A DNA stretch of 64,000 bases from Escherichia coli. GTDB taxonomy: Bacteria; Pseudomonadota; Gammaproteobacteria; Enterobacterales; Enterobacteriaceae. The stretch lies in NCBI RefSeq assembly GCF_050920415.1, contig NZ_CP169309.1; one strand, given 5' to 3'. Within the stretch, counting starts at the first letter, position 1. Each line of letters opens with the position of its first letter. Made by a program: the position numbers. Below are positions 54,301-57,300 of this stretch, one piece after another.

Positions 54301-57300
54301 CCGGTAGTTCTCTTCTTCTTCGAGTAGCTCGAGCAACTCGATTTGCTCTTCGTCGCTCAGGTTATCAAGAATCGCGTCCAGTTCCACGGTTGAATAGCTC
54401 CTTGATACGAGAGCGCCGCTTATCGCGATCTCCCTTATCAGGTGTCACGTCTTCAACTTGCGACTGCTCTTTGAGGCCCAAATCACGGGCGATGATGTTA
54501 GCGTTGAGAAGGTCAGCGGCTGCGCCAGAGAATTTCTGGTCGTAGATGACCTGTTCTGCTCGCGTAACGACTTCAGATAAATCTTCTCGCAGGCGATATG
54601 TGCGCCATGTTTCAAGCGTCACATCAATGAACAGAGTGAGGCCGGTAATGGTCATCGCTCGCATCTTGGCGATAGGCTCTTGTATTACTTCACCCTGATA
54701 CGAGAACGCCTTCATCTCCCATAGCGGGTTAGCTTCCACCCACTCGAAGTATTCACAACAAGCAGCCCACAGCGCCTCAGGCGATTCGAATTTAGGATTT
54801 CGCCCATGACTACTGCGGGCCTCCCAAAATCGGTTGCCCTTTGGTGCTGCCATATTGATTATTTCCCTTCTGCTTGCTTATCCCATTCATCGCGGAATTT
54901 GGATGGGTTGTCGAAACCTTGAGTTGCCATGTTTATGCTCCGGTAGTGAACAGGTCTAACGCTTCCTTCGATTTACGCACCGCTTCGATAGTGCGAGATG
55001 TGAAGTCTGGATTTGCACCGCCATCGTTGTAGTGCAACTTGAACAATTCCAGTTTCAGTTGGTCAGCACCAATGAATGCAAAAGCTTCCTCTGCCGCTGA
55101 ATTGTTCTTAGATAGCAGTCGGTAAATTTCTAACTTGAACTTCTGTTCTTCAGTCATGGGAATAATCTCTGCCATTGTTGGCTCCGTTTATCCGTTAAAA
55201 GGGATATCAGTTAAGTTATCCCGTGTAGGGTATAAGCCATTATCAAAGCCACTATGTAGGGAATGGCTTTTGTGATGGCAATAAAAAAGGCCGCCTGAGC
55301 GACCTGTTAGTTGTTCACAACTTCCATTGAAGGTCCAGCATGTCGAAAAATGATCCGCATTTAGGGGGATTTTCCATTCTTGCCCTCTCTTCAGCAGCTT
55401 TGTAATAAGCCATTGGCCTTTTCACACCATCAGCACCAGTGATGTATTCAACGCCTTCCTTCGGATCTTGTTCACGGAAACCATCGCAACCTATTCCACT
55501 TGTTTATCATCGATTCAGTGGATGTCTTTCCATCAGTCCGCCACCACAAAGAATCTTTTTTGCCATAAGGCAGGAGGTTCATCTTTCAGTGGCTGCCAGT
55601 GTTATTTCCCCACTTACTGGCTTGGGTTGTTTCGCTGTACTGCCGTTAACTGGTGGCCCAGAATAAATTCCGGTTTCATTATCAAGCCCACCCATTGATG
55701 GGCTTTGTAATGACTACAGTAACGAACTGCACAATGCGCCTGTATTTCGAGGATGACGCCCAAATACGTTAATCTTCTCGCGAACGCTCTCACTACACAT
55801 TCGCTCTACAATTCGCCAAACAGCCTTTTCAGGTAAAAATTTCGGCGCTAGTGCTGAAATAGCACGCCACATACCCCGACTAAGCGAGCATGCTGTGCTA
55901 CCGAAACTAAAGATGGCGAACGAAATAGACGTGATAAACGCCCAGCACCCAGAGAGAAAAGTTGAGATGCGGTGATAAAGCTTAGTCATGTATTGCTCCT
56001 GTTTTTTGGTTTTCATCGCCCGATCATTTCAGGCATTGCGTCCTGATGTATTCCTGCAGGTAGTTAACCTGCGCGGTTATCTTGTCGATTCCACTTCTGA
56101 GACGGTAATAATTGAGTTCAGCATCTGCTGTAAGTCTTGGGCTTTCTCCATCGCCCATGCTGTTGGCTCCGGTCGTTGACTTTGCACAGGTGGCGGCGAC
56201 TTGCAGGCGCTTACGACCAGCAGAAACATCAGCACGGAGACTTTCGATAGTCGCATTAGCATCAGCAAGCTCCTTTGTGTATCTGGCGTCAAGTTCTGCT
56301 ACATCACGTTGACGCTTCTGCATGTCAGCGATTGTGGATGCGGCCTTATCGCGCTGTTCTTTGTAGGCGATGGCGTTATCACGGTAATGATTGACCGCCC
56401 ATGACAGACAGACGACGATGCAGATAATCAGAGCGGAGATAATCGCGGTGACTCTGCTCATACCTCAATCTCTCTAACCGTTCCGCCTGCTTCTTTGAAT
56501 TTTGCAATCAGGCTGTCAGCCTTATGCTCGAACTGGCCATAACCAGCGCCCGGCAGTGAAGCCCAGATATTGCTGCAACGGTCGATTGCCTGACGAATAT
56601 CACCGCGATCAATCATCGGCAAAGCGCCACGCTCCTTAATCTGCTGCAATGCCACAGCGTCCTGACTTTTCGGAGAGAAGTCTTTCAGGCCAAGCTGCTT
56701 GCGGTAGGCATCCCACCAACGGGAAAGAAGCTGGTAACGTCCGGCTGCTGTTGATTTGAGTTTGGGGTTTAGCGTGACAAGTTTGCGAGGGTGATGGAGT
56801 AATCAGTGAATAGCCCCCCGCCTACAATGACGTCATAACCATGATTTCTGGTTTTCTGACGTCCGTTATCAGTTCCCTCTGACCACGCCAGCATATCGAG
56901 GAACGCCTTACGTTGATTATTGATTTCCACCATCTTCTACTCCGGCTTTTTTAGCAGCGAAGCGTTTGATAAGCGAACCAATCGAGTCAGTACCGATGTA
57001 GCCGATGAACACGCTCGTTATATAAGCGAGATTGCTACTTAGTCCGGCGAAGTCGAGAAGGTCACGAATGAACCAGGCGATAATGGCGCACATCGTTGCG
57101 TCGATTACTGTTTTTGTAAACGCACCGCCATTATATCTGCCGCGAAGGTACGCCATTGCAAACGCAAGGATTGCCCCGATGCCTTGTTCCTTTGCCGCGA
57201 GAATGGCGGCTAACAGGTCATGTTTTTCTGGCATCTTCATGTCTTACCCCCAATAAGGGGATTTGCTCTATTTAATTAGGAATAAGGTCGATTACTGATA

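What the first reader, a model, noticed from the sequence alone, without database searches (positions are those of the whole stretch)
55176..56016. Poorly coding stretch between the spanin genes and the terminase operon
About 0.8 kb between Rz and the upstream 80-aa ORF contains only one plausible 100-aa ORF and otherwise short or overlapping frames. In lambdoid phages this position often carries lysogenic-conversion or accessory genes, so it may be a decayed cargo gene.
Basis: inference. Interest (0 to 1): 0.25.

Follow-up and report, generated by a model that had tools for sequence, protein, structure and literature searches.

The report
Accessory-gene slot with conserved RNA hairpins
The "poorly coding" 0.8 kb after the phage lysis genes is not junk: it holds one intact but unnamed small gene, one small gene broken by a single-base deletion, a terminator, and two copies of a conserved RNA hairpin that marks the ends of swappable accessory genes in many P22-, Sf6- and HK97-like phages.

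Summary
The stretch lies in a P22-like prophage read on the minus strand, between Rz and the DUF2560/ORF80 gene, and the ORF listing is as described. It is only partly a decayed cargo gene.

- **55989-55714:** an intact 91-aa gene (phrog_34701). Homologues are 87-93 aa and the C-terminal half is under strong purifying selection. It sits directly after the spanin gene across different lysis cassettes. RefSeq leaves it unannotated in most of the 113 E. coli genomes that carry it.
- **55713-55676 and 55278-55237:** two copies of a 38-42 nt hairpin. The lower stem is CAUUA/UAAUG, the internal loop CA/GA, and the upper stem covaries. There are 85 G·U against 2 A·C pairs, so the late-sense strand folds. 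The hairpin starts 0-14 nt after the stop codons of more than 20 unrelated genes, and it is not in Rfam.
- **55660-55521:** a 140-nt non-coding block, 90-99% identical in 165 phage records including P22 and HK97.
- **55484-55315:** a 56-aa gene (phrog_5425) frameshifted by one deleted A at 55469. It is intact in a relative that is otherwise identical.
- **55305-55280:** an intrinsic terminator.

The anatomy is well supported. The functions of the protein and the hairpin are inferred.

The parts
55996..56000 (-). Shine-Dalgarno AGGAG of the 91-aa gene, 6 nt upstream of its ATG, inside the 34-nt spacer after the Rz stop codon
   Evidence: Read directly from the sequence. The motif (A)CAGGAGYAAYAC-ATG is kept upstream of homologues in loci with unrelated lysis cassettes.
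55714..55989 (-). Intact 91-aa gene of unknown function (phrog_34701). It has an N-terminal hydrophobic helix (residues ~11-29) and a conserved C-terminal motif W-x3-ER...N-x2-G...STGALCSPLL. The 100-aa ORF starting at 56016 is an upstream extension of it.
   Evidence: phrog_34701 matches full length, E = 3e-55, with residues 10-100 of the ORF aligning to profile positions 1-91. There are 50 homologues at 55-97% identity; 46 are 90-93 aa and four are shorter (84, 84 and 53 aa). An exhaustive HMM search finds remote members of 87-93 aa. In the C-terminal half, 32 of 39 third-codon positions vary against 7 of 39 second positions, with dN 0.02-0.15 and dS above 0.7 or saturated. The gene lies ~35 nt after the spanin gene in most of the loci read, across unrelated holin, endolysin and terminase types. 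It has no Pfam, NCBIfam, PADLOC or PDB match.
55676..55713 (-). Hairpin copy 1: UCAUUA-CA-AAGCCCAUC-AAUG-GGUGGGCUU-GA-UAAUGA. It begins 1 nt after the stop codon of the 91-aa gene.
   Evidence: Minimum free energy is -19.6 kcal/mol, z = -5.6. It scores 56.6 bits, E = 1.6e-12, against model R1. On A3, 96.4% of cells are paired, 10 of 15 pairs change on both sides, the covariation score is 0.50 against 0.22 shuffled (0 of 500 shuffles reach it), and slid controls pair at 33-51%. Homology between loci ends exactly at GATAATG.
55661..55675 (-). Variable linker between hairpin 1 and the conserved block. Relatives have one of two alternative versions, one of them 59 nt longer.
   Evidence: Alignment of 31 distinct contexts.
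55521..55660 (-). 140-nt conserved block with no conserved ORF. Its 3' edge (GACATC) is a sharp mosaic junction.
   Evidence: It is 90-99% identical (mostly 94-98%) in 165 phage records, including P22, ST64T, HK97, CUS-3 and mEp234. In P22 it starts at the stop codon of ORF201/rha and is followed by a hairpin copy. After GACATC, at least five unrelated modules follow. Candidate ATGs are lost in some relatives and 1-2 nt indels occur in the first half. Its folding is unremarkable, z = -0.9 sense and -2.0 antisense. It has no Rfam match.
55315..55484 (-). Frameshifted copy of a 56-aa gene (phrog_5425). One A of an AAA run is missing at ~55469. Restoring it gives MVSVNKDPKEGVEYITGADGVKRPMAYYKAAEERARMENPPKCGSFFDMLDLQWKL.
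   Evidence: L019 is identical to the window over 56500-54900 except for this single base, and it has the intact ORF. The AF14 homologue (61 aa) matches phrog_5425 at E = 3.6e-39, and the window's 36-aa C-terminal remnant matches at 2.1e-25. The family has 17 protein clusters, most 54-62 aa (three are 85-98 aa and one 30 aa), reaching 61% identity in Yersinia.
55280..55305 (-). Intrinsic (rho-independent) terminator AGGUCGC-UCAG-GCGGCCU followed by UUUUUUAUU, 9 nt after the stop codon of the phrog_5425 gene
   Evidence: Terminator scan: 7 pairs, 5 of them G-C, loop of 4, T-run. It is conserved in AF14 and A39 and absent from N7.
55237..55278 (-). Hairpin copy 2: CCAUCA-CA-AAAGCCAUU-...-AGUGGCUUU-GA-UAAUGG. 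One lower-stem pair is mismatched. It directly precedes the DUF2560 leader.
   Evidence: It scores 46.3 bits, E = 1.1e-9, against R1. Minimum free energy is -13.0 kcal/mol, z = -3.7. The same type with an intact lower stem occurs in Sf6 after gene 66, and in HK544, A39 and L033.
55176..55236 (-). Leader of the DUF2560/ORF80 gene, with two short UAUCCC...GGGAUA-type hairpins and a GGAG Shine-Dalgarno
   Evidence: It is conserved wherever DUF2560 follows. In L021 it is joined directly to hairpin 1. Its folding z-score is -2.0.

Best explanation
The stretch is the accessory-gene slot of a P22-like late operon. It is built from promoterless units that are read on the minus strand from the late promoter together with the lysis genes.

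- **Unit 1:** an intact 91-aa gene encoding a small, probably membrane-anchored protein, followed 1 nt after its stop codon by a conserved RNA hairpin.
- **Unit 2:** a widely conserved 140-nt non-coding leader, a 56-aa gene that this prophage has lost to a 1-bp deletion, and an intrinsic terminator.
- **Junction:** a second hairpin copy joins the slot to the leader of DUF2560/ORF80 and the terminase genes.

Shown: the parts, their conservation, the coding status of both genes, and the covariation and strand asymmetry of the hairpin.

Inferred: the hairpin folds in the late mRNA as a terminator-derived 3' structure without a U-tract. In that role it would protect or define the 3' end of the upstream cistron without stopping the late transcript. 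Its invariant arms (CATTACA / GATAATG) would serve as the short homologies at which accessory genes are exchanged between phages.

Also inferred: the 91-aa protein acts at the cell envelope in connection with lysis or exclusion. This rests on its position and hydrophobic N-terminus only.
For: **Context.** Rz (PF03245) and DUF2560 (PF10834) flank the stretch. The neighbouring genes match P22-like portal, terminase and lysis genes.

**The 91-aa gene.** It matches phrog_34701. Homologue length is conserved down to ~25% identity. Selection is purifying. It sits directly after the spanin gene in most lambdoid loci read, and two genes downstream of an Rz-like gene in one remote homologue from an unrelated phage.

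**The hairpin.**
- Covariation is strong.
- Among 50 distinct sequences there are 85 G·U pairs against 2 A·C pairs, and the reverse strand scores only 14-18 bits.
- The 64-kb window has exactly two copies. The whole Sf6 genome has exactly two, both in this slot.
- It starts 0-14 nt after the stop codon of more than 20 unrelated ORF families.
- One hairpin type is found with 4-6 unrelated upstream flanks and up to 10 unrelated downstream flanks, and homology breaks right after GATAATG.
- At the same position, other family members carry canonical terminators instead (L011, L207, L208) or a hybrid hairpin followed by a U-run (L006).

**The pseudogene.** One base differs from L019, and the family appears real.

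**Precedent.** P22 carries the pid moron in this same slot.
Against: - No transcript, protein or 3'-end data were available, so every functional statement is inferred.
- No promoter was found for either unit, so expression in the lysogen is unknown.
- The 91-aa protein has no recognisable domain, and its AlphaFold models are of low confidence (pLDDT 61-67).
- In the window, a canonical terminator and hairpin 2 sit side by side (55305-55237). The hairpin is therefore not simply a substitute for a terminator.
- The G·U against A·C count comes from an alignment fitted by a model of the sense strand, which biases it somewhat.
- Conservation of the 140-nt block may reflect only recent spread of a mosaic segment.
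- The frameshift could be an assembly error rather than real decay. All four differences of this kind against the nearest relatives are single-base deletions.
Confidence: 0.6

Rival explanations
1. The whole stretch is the remains of one decayed cargo gene.
For: There are many short overlapping frames. One real frameshift exists at 55469. Fragments that looked DUF551-like by eye lie in the 140-nt block. The prophage carries other single-base indels in essential genes.
Against: The largest ORF is intact and under purifying selection. The same ~600-nt arrangement occurs unchanged in the plaque-forming phages N7 and HK140. The parts have separate evolutionary histories and sharp mosaic junctions. 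A DUF551 protein from A39 gives no significant tblastn hit here, and Pfam finds nothing in the fragments.
Confidence: 0.05
2. The hairpins are ordinary factor-independent transcription terminators that close independently transcribed morons.
For: They lie just after stop codons. Related positions carry canonical terminators or a hybrid with a U-run. Morons are classically bounded by a terminator (PMC2629481).
Against: No U-tract follows the stem: the sequence is GAUAAUG followed by A, G or C. The terminator scan picked up neither copy but did find the true terminator at 55305. No promoter was found upstream. In the window a real terminator sits immediately next to hairpin 2.
Confidence: 0.15
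3. The hairpin is a DNA-level element, either a protein-binding palindrome or a site for a recombinase or homing nuclease, rather than an RNA structure.
For: It lies exactly at mosaic junctions. HNH, GIY-YIG and other nuclease genes occur in the same slot in relatives. Its outer arms are invariant, like a recognition site.
Against: G·U pairs are common and A·C pairs are nearly absent, which a double-stranded palindrome would not produce. The internal loop CA/GA is conserved and asymmetric. No particular nuclease or recombinase gene co-occurs with it across the loci. A single-stranded DNA hairpin of the same strand, as in integron attC sites, is not excluded by these data.
Confidence: 0.15
4. 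The 140-nt block, bracketed by hairpins in N7-type phages, is a small RNA released from the late transcript.
For: It is very widely conserved, at 90-99% in 165 phage records against ~83% for the neighbouring P22 genes. It has no conserved ORF. In N7, HK140 and ISHS7 it lies between two hairpin copies with nothing else.
Against: Its folding energy is not unusual, z = -0.9. There is too little variation to test covariation. It has no Rfam match. DUF2560 next to it is also ~90% conserved, so the block may simply belong to a recently spread mosaic segment.
Confidence: 0.1

Closest known systems
P22 late-region moron slot (rha/ORF201, orf25, pid; Cenens et al. 2013, PMC3573128; PMC8835761)
   Same: It occupies the same genomic position, between the spanin genes and ORF80/gene 3. 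It also went unannotated for decades, holds small ORFan genes, and has a rho-independent terminator that matters for stability of the pid mRNA. P22 carries the same 140-nt block and a copy of the hairpin.
   Different: pid is transcribed against the late operon from its own promoter. The genes here are co-oriented with the late operon and no promoter was found. There is no pid homologue in the window.
PeSL (promoter-early stem-loop) cassettes of T4-type phages (Arbiol et al. 2010, PMC2839356)
   Same: Both are short conserved intergenic motifs containing a stem-loop. Both flank non-essential ORFan genes in hypervariable regions, and in both the differences between phages map to exchanges at the motifs.
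   Different: PeSLs include a strong sigma-70 promoter and their stem-loops are effective terminators. This element has neither a promoter nor a U-tract. Mini-circle formation was not tested here.
Integron gene cassettes and attC sites
   Same: Both have a promoterless ORF followed by an imperfect inverted repeat with conserved outer arms and a variable, self-complementary centre. Both form arrays read from one upstream promoter, and in both one strand is the folded, functional one.
   Different: No IntI-type integrase lies next to the array. The arms are CATTACA/GATAATG rather than RYYYAAC/GTTRRRY. Arrays have only 1-3 units. The resemblance is in architecture only.
Intercistronic stabiliser hairpins and RNase III sites (REP in malE-malF, T7 R sites, lambda sib)
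   Same: All are stable stem-loops with an internal loop, placed between cistrons of a long operon. None has a U-tract, and all fold on the sense strand.
   Different: No cleavage or stabilisation data exist for this element. Its sequence is unrelated to REP or to the T7 R sites.
PHROG families phrog_34701 and phrog_5425
   Same: The two protein-coding parts match these families over their full length, or over the surviving part.
   Different: Both families are listed as 'unknown function'. The window's phrog_5425 copy is frameshifted.

Membership tests
phrog_34701 (91-aa phage protein, function unknown) | Full-length match to the family profile | tested here: met
   E = 3.1e-55; residues 10-100 of the ORF align to profile positions 1-91 of 91.
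phrog_34701 (91-aa phage protein, function unknown) | Uninterrupted ORF of family length, evolving as a protein | tested here: met
   The ORF is 91 aa, like 46 of its 50 homologues at 90-93 aa. In the C-terminal half dN is 0.02-0.15 and dS is above 0.7 or saturated.
phrog_5425 (54-62 aa phage protein, function unknown) | Match to the family profile | tested here: met
   The 36-aa remnant matches at E = 2.1e-25, and the intact AF14 copy at 3.6e-39.
phrog_5425 (54-62 aa phage protein, function unknown) | Intact reading frame from the start codon | tested here: not met
   A 1-bp deletion at 55469 gives MVSVNKIRRKALNTSLVLMV*. Restoring one A gives the 56-aa protein of L019.
Intrinsic terminator (for 55305-55280) | G+C-rich stem-loop followed at once by a U-run | tested here: met
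   7 pairs (5 G-C), loop of 4, then TTTTTTATT. Activity cannot be tested with these tools.
Intrinsic terminator (for the two hairpin copies) | U-run directly after the stem | tested here: not met
   The stem is followed by GAUAAUG and then A, G or C in all 50 distinct family members. Neither copy was reported by the terminator scan.
Moron (Juhala/Hendrix sense) | Gene present between two conserved genes in some related phages and absent in others | tested here: met
   The 91-aa gene is in 4 of 50,697 phage records and 113 of 5,426 E. coli genomes. Sf6, P22 and HK544 have other genes in this slot.
Moron (Juhala/Hendrix sense) | Own promoter | tested here: not met
   There is no sigma-70-like site on the minus strand in 54800-56500. 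This was a consensus scan only, so weak or other promoter types are not excluded.
Integron cassette array | Adjacent IntI-type integrase and attI site | tested here: not met
   In the window and in the lambdoid loci read no integrase gene lies next to the slot, except in L006, where a prophage integrase gene lies ~2.4 kb upstream at a truncated prophage end. attI itself was not searched for.
Integron cassette array | attC core sites RYYYAAC / GTTRRRY | tested here: not met
   The invariant arms are CATTACA and GATAATG.
T4-type PeSL | Strong sigma-70 promoter joined to a terminating stem-loop | tested here: not met
   There is no promoter-like site and no U-tract. The feature is as described in PMC2839356.
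Any Rfam family | Score at or above the family's gathering threshold | tested here: not met
   The best match is 20.5 bits against a threshold of 50 (Atu_C8). Everything else has E of 0.17 or higher.
DUF551 (PF04448), considered for the fragments in 55521-55660 | Match to the Pfam profile or to an intact DUF551 neighbour | tested here: not met
   Pfam gives no hit for the two ORF fragments tested. The A39 DUF551 protein gives no significant tblastn hit in 55100-56100. The resemblance was by eye only.

The most novel reading that the evidence does not exclude
Lambdoid phages of enterobacteria (P22-, Sf6- and HK97-like) keep a small array of promoterless gene cassettes at the end of the lysis module. 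Each cassette ends in one family of RNA hairpin. The hairpin would be both a 3'-end or processing signal in the late mRNA and the short homology at which cassettes are swapped between phages. That would make it a phage counterpart of PeSL or integron cassette architecture that needs no dedicated integrase. The 91-aa protein would be one such cassette, with a role tied to lysis or the cell envelope.
Probability: 0.3. Interest if true: 0.75.

Novelty: new variant of a known kind. Interest (0 to 1): 0.45.

Why it matters
- **An annotation gap.** A protein family under clear purifying selection, placed after the spanin gene in phages with different lysis cassettes, is missing from RefSeq annotation in most carriers. 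It has no assigned function, which makes it a cheap candidate for a lysis-timing or exclusion phenotype.
- **A structured element in model phages.** The hairpin family occurs in roughly a tenth of complete E. coli genomes and in P22, Sf6 and HK97. It is not annotated in the Sf6, P22, HK97, N7 or RefSeq E. coli records examined, and it is absent from Rfam. It gives a concrete, testable sequence basis for an old question: how mosaic junctions in lambdoid phages come to fall so precisely between genes.
- **A caution for prophage calls.** A "poorly coding" interval in a prophage can be mostly conserved non-coding signal rather than decay.

Tried and rejected
- **Domain and structure searches for the 91-aa protein.** Pfam, NCBIfam, PADLOC and PDB-sequence searches found nothing.
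- **Structure prediction.** Two AlphaFold runs, with alignments of 18 and 30 sequences, gave only two low-confidence helices (pLDDT 61.5 and 66.6). I did not run fold searches because matches to such models would be meaningless.
- **Lipoprotein reading.** L-S-G-C at residues 12-15 resembles a lipobox. I rejected it because the Cys lies in the middle of the hydrophobic helix and remote homologues lack it.
- **Rfam.** Scans at E up to 1 and up to 10 found nothing credible.
- **DUF551 remnant idea for the 140-nt block.** Not supported.
- **Small ORFs in the block** (MNLLPYGKK..., MAKKILCGGG...). Their start codons are lost in some relatives and their C-terminal ends run into variable modules.
- **P22 pid.** No homologue in the window.
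- **Known prophage sRNAs.** STnc6030 maps to the tailspike region (PMC7067206). Pas sRNAs map upstream of the holin gene (bioRxiv 10.64898/2026.05.13.724894). Neither is this element.
- **Sf6 'boundary sequence' bsq7.** It lies inside Rz, not here.
- **Literature.** Searches on DUF2560, late-operon stem-loops, boundary sequences and cassettes found no description of the hairpin. The library lacks many subscription papers, so this absence is weak evidence.
- **Lambda.** Positions 44000-48502 hold no copy of the hairpin.
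Full report
**Setting.** Positions ~37.2-64 kb of the window are a P22-like prophage whose late genes run on the minus strand. 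From high to low coordinates the order is antiterminator, holin, lysozyme, Rz/Rz1, the stretch in question, DUF2560 (the P22 ORF80 homologue), small and large terminase, and portal. The host part of the window (24000-37138) is the E. coli bio-uvrB region. It matches strain MFDS1022581 at 100.0% in one piece.

**Checking the observation.** Rz (PF03245) ends at 56024 and DUF2560 (PF10834) starts at 55175. Between them the ORF list shows one ORF of 100 aa and only short or overlapping frames. The description is therefore accurate, and the stretch stands out in a gene-dense phage. RefSeq annotation of close relatives also leaves ~600 nt here empty (E. coli ISHS7 and YY76-1, phage N7).

**Part 1: an intact 91-aa gene (55989-55714, minus strand).**
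- The real start is the ATG at 55989, preceded by AGGAG. Residues 10-100 of the 100-aa ORF cover phrog_34701 end to end, E = 3e-55.
- A search of 5.8 billion proteins gave 50 relatives at 55-97% identity from Escherichia, Enterobacter and Citrobacter. Forty-six of them are 90-93 aa.
- An exhaustive profile search added remote members, all 87-93 aa. W58, T83, G84 and L86 are invariant, within a motif W-x3-ER...N-x2-G...STGALCSPLL.
- Codon analysis of seven divergent copies shows protein-level selection. In the C-terminal 39 codons, 32 third positions vary against 7 second positions. dN is 0.02-0.15 while dS is above 0.7 or saturated.
- In most loci read the gene begins ~35 nt after the spanin gene. 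This holds whichever holin, endolysin or terminase type the phage has. A remote homologue sits two genes downstream of a muramidase and Rz-like cluster in an unrelated phage.
- The N-terminus is a hydrophobic helix (Kyte-Doolittle 19-residue maximum ~1.7 at residues 11-29) and the protein is basic.
- There is no Pfam, NCBIfam, PADLOC or PDB relative. AlphaFold gives two low-confidence helices.
- The gene is rare in sequenced phages: N7, HK140 and a Klebsiella phage, 4 of 50,697 records. It is present in 113 of 5,426 complete E. coli genomes, where most annotations show nothing.

**Part 2: a covarying hairpin, two copies (55713-55676 and 55278-55237, minus strand).**
- *Structure.* One nucleotide after the stop codon lies UCAUUA-CA-AAGCCCAUC-AAUG-GGUGGGCUU-GA-UAAUGA, at -19.6 kcal/mol and z = -5.6. 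Across divergent loci the upper stem is replaced by fully compensated versions: GAGCCAC/GUGGCUC, AGGCGCA/UGCGCCU and GAAGCUC/GGGCUUC. The lower stem changes from CAUUA/UAAUG to CAUCA/UGAUG or UAUUG/CAAUG.
- *Covariation.* On 24 distinct sequences 96.4% of cells pair and 10 of 15 pairs change on both sides. The covariation score is 0.50 against 0.22 in shuffles (0 of 500 reach it). Shifting the partners by 1-3 columns drops pairing to 33-51%.
- *Distribution.* A covariance model finds exactly two copies in the 64-kb window, both on the late-sense strand. The whole Sf6 genome also has exactly two, after genes 65 and 66. HK544 and A39 have two each, P22 has one after ORF201/rha, and the 2.8-kb N7 locus searched has three. 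The lysis-to-cos end of lambda that was searched has none.
- *Which strand folds.* Among 50 distinct family members the stems hold 85 G·U pairs and 2 A·C pairs. The reverse strand scores 14-18 bits against 46-61. The late-sense strand is therefore the folded one.
- *Not a terminator.* No U-run follows the stem. The terminator scan ignores both copies but finds the true terminator at 55305.
- *Not catalogued.* Rfam has nothing like it. The type-1 sequence alone occurs in 614 of 5,426 E. coli genomes, unannotated in the rows listed except for one 'hypothetical protein'.

**What the hairpin marks.**
- In 119 non-redundant contexts the hairpin begins 0-14 nt after the stop codon of more than 20 unrelated ORF families. 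These include the 91-aa family, Sf6 gp65 and gp66, DUF2560-like genes, Rz itself and a LysA-like gene.
- One hairpin type occurs with 4-6 unrelated upstream flanks and up to 10 unrelated downstream flanks.
- Similarity between loci stops exactly at GATAATG.
- L021 joins hairpin 1 directly to the DUF2560 leader. The window's 55675-55279 therefore behaves as an insert bracketed by two hairpin copies.
- In some Salmonella-type contigs, hairpin, ~26 nt, ORF, 2 nt and hairpin follow one another tightly.
- Where other members of the 91-aa family lack the hairpin, a canonical terminator stands in the same place (L011, L207, L208). L006 carries a hybrid whose stem is followed by UUUUUUAAUGG.
- I read this as a terminator-derived 3' hairpin that has lost its U-tract. 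It could protect or define the 3' end of the upstream cistron without stopping the late transcript. Its invariant arms could be the joints for cassette exchange. Both functions are inferences.
- A canonical terminator and hairpin 2 lie side by side in the window. The hairpin is therefore not a plain terminator substitute.

**Part 3: a conserved 140-nt block (55660-55521).**
- It is 90-99% identical (mostly 94-98%) in 165 phage records, including P22, ST64T, HK97 and CUS-3. P22 as a whole is only ~83% identical to this region.
- In P22 the block begins at the stop codon of rha and is followed by a hairpin copy.
- After its last bases (GACATC) at least five unrelated modules follow in different phages.
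- No ORF is conserved, and 1-2 nt indels occur.
- Its predicted folding is unremarkable.
- Its role is open. The neighbouring DUF2560 gene is also ~90% conserved, so recent spread of a mosaic segment is a sufficient explanation.

**Part 4: a broken small gene and its terminator (55484-55280).**
- The IMG/VR contig L019 is identical to the window over 1,601 bases except for one A (AAA to AA at 55469). L019 encodes an intact 56-aa protein, while the window's frame ends after 20 codons.
- The intact protein belongs to phrog_5425. That family has 17 clusters, most 54-62 aa, reaching Yersinia at 61% identity.
- Nine nucleotides after the stop codon lies a clean intrinsic terminator.
- This is the only part that fits 'decayed cargo gene'.

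**Is the decay real?**
- Against L019 and L075 (99.75% and 99.89% identical over 5.3 kb) the window has four single-base deletions. They fall in lysozyme (56795), this gene (55469) and the large terminase (53970, 53470). Against L075 there is only one substitution.
- There is also a +1 insertion in the portal gene relative to ISHS7.
- The host flank shows no such defects. That favours real inactivation of a prophage.
- The deletion-only pattern also resembles assembly error. I cannot decide between the two.

**Comparison with what is known.**
- The slot is the one where P22 carries rha and the long-overlooked pid moron (PMC3573128, PMC8835761).
- The architecture of gene plus hairpin most resembles the PeSL cassettes of T4-type phages (PMC2839356) and, more loosely, integron cassettes. 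It lacks the promoter and terminator activity of PeSLs, and it lacks the integrase and core sites of integrons.
- I found no description of the hairpin in the Sf6 annotation, in the epsilon34 or phage L papers, or in the searchable library. Many older phage papers are not in that library.

**Verdict.** The anatomy is well supported. The functions of the hairpin, the block and the 91-aa protein are inferred. Interest is moderate: an unannotated conserved gene and an apparently undescribed, strongly covarying hairpin family at mosaic junctions of model phages, set in an otherwise ordinary accessory-gene slot.

Noticed in passing
window 51197, 53470, 53970, 56795 (and 55469): Single-base indels break the portal, large terminase (twice) and lysozyme genes relative to near-identical relatives. 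Against L075 there are four 1-bp deletions and one substitution in 5.3 kb. The prophage is either defective or locally mis-assembled; the host flank shows no such defects.
   Followed up: partly
window 55521-55660 (minus strand): A 140-nt non-coding block is 90-99% identical in 165 phage records, including P22, HK97, ST64T and CUS-3. It ends in a sharp mosaic junction at GACATC. No conserved ORF and no convincing structure were found.
   Followed up: partly
window 55714-55989; E. coli genomes: The 91-aa gene is left unannotated by RefSeq/PGAP in most of the 113 complete E. coli genomes that carry it, and in phage N7, despite clear purifying selection.
   Followed up: yes
L003 (phage N7) 2259-2296, minus strand: A third, weaker hairpin copy (32 bits) lies 18 nt after an HNH endonuclease gene, upstream of the holin gene. 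The element is therefore not strictly confined to the slot after Rz.
   Followed up: no
window 55176-55236 (minus strand): The leader of the DUF2560/ORF80 gene contains two short hairpins of the form UAUCCC...GGGAUA. Variants of this motif recur just downstream of the hairpin in other phages (for example GATATCCCCTACAAGGGATAA). This may be an operator or a translational control site.
   Followed up: no
L075 position equivalent to window 55877: A near-identical IMG/VR relative has its own 1-bp deletion (GGGG to GGG) inside the 91-aa gene. Homopolymer-length differences recur among these public assemblies.
   Followed up: no
window 55556-55577 (plus strand): A terminator-like hairpin on the strand opposite the late genes lies inside the conserved block (UUUUUUGCC-AUAA-GGCAGGAGG, then a U/C-rich tail). 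The antisense strand of the block folds slightly better than chance (z = -2.0).
   Followed up: no
window 24000-37138: The host flank is the E. coli bio-uvrB region, close to the classical lambda attachment region. It is 100.0% identical to strain MFDS1022581, and the prophage sequence begins just beyond ~37.1-37.3 kb.
   Followed up: no
L006-L009 4664-4704: In Enterobacter prophages, the 83-aa gene that follows the 91-aa gene is itself followed by a hybrid element. It has the family's lower arm and upper stem but a U-run in place of GA. It looks like an intermediate between an intrinsic terminator and the hairpin family.
   Followed up: partly
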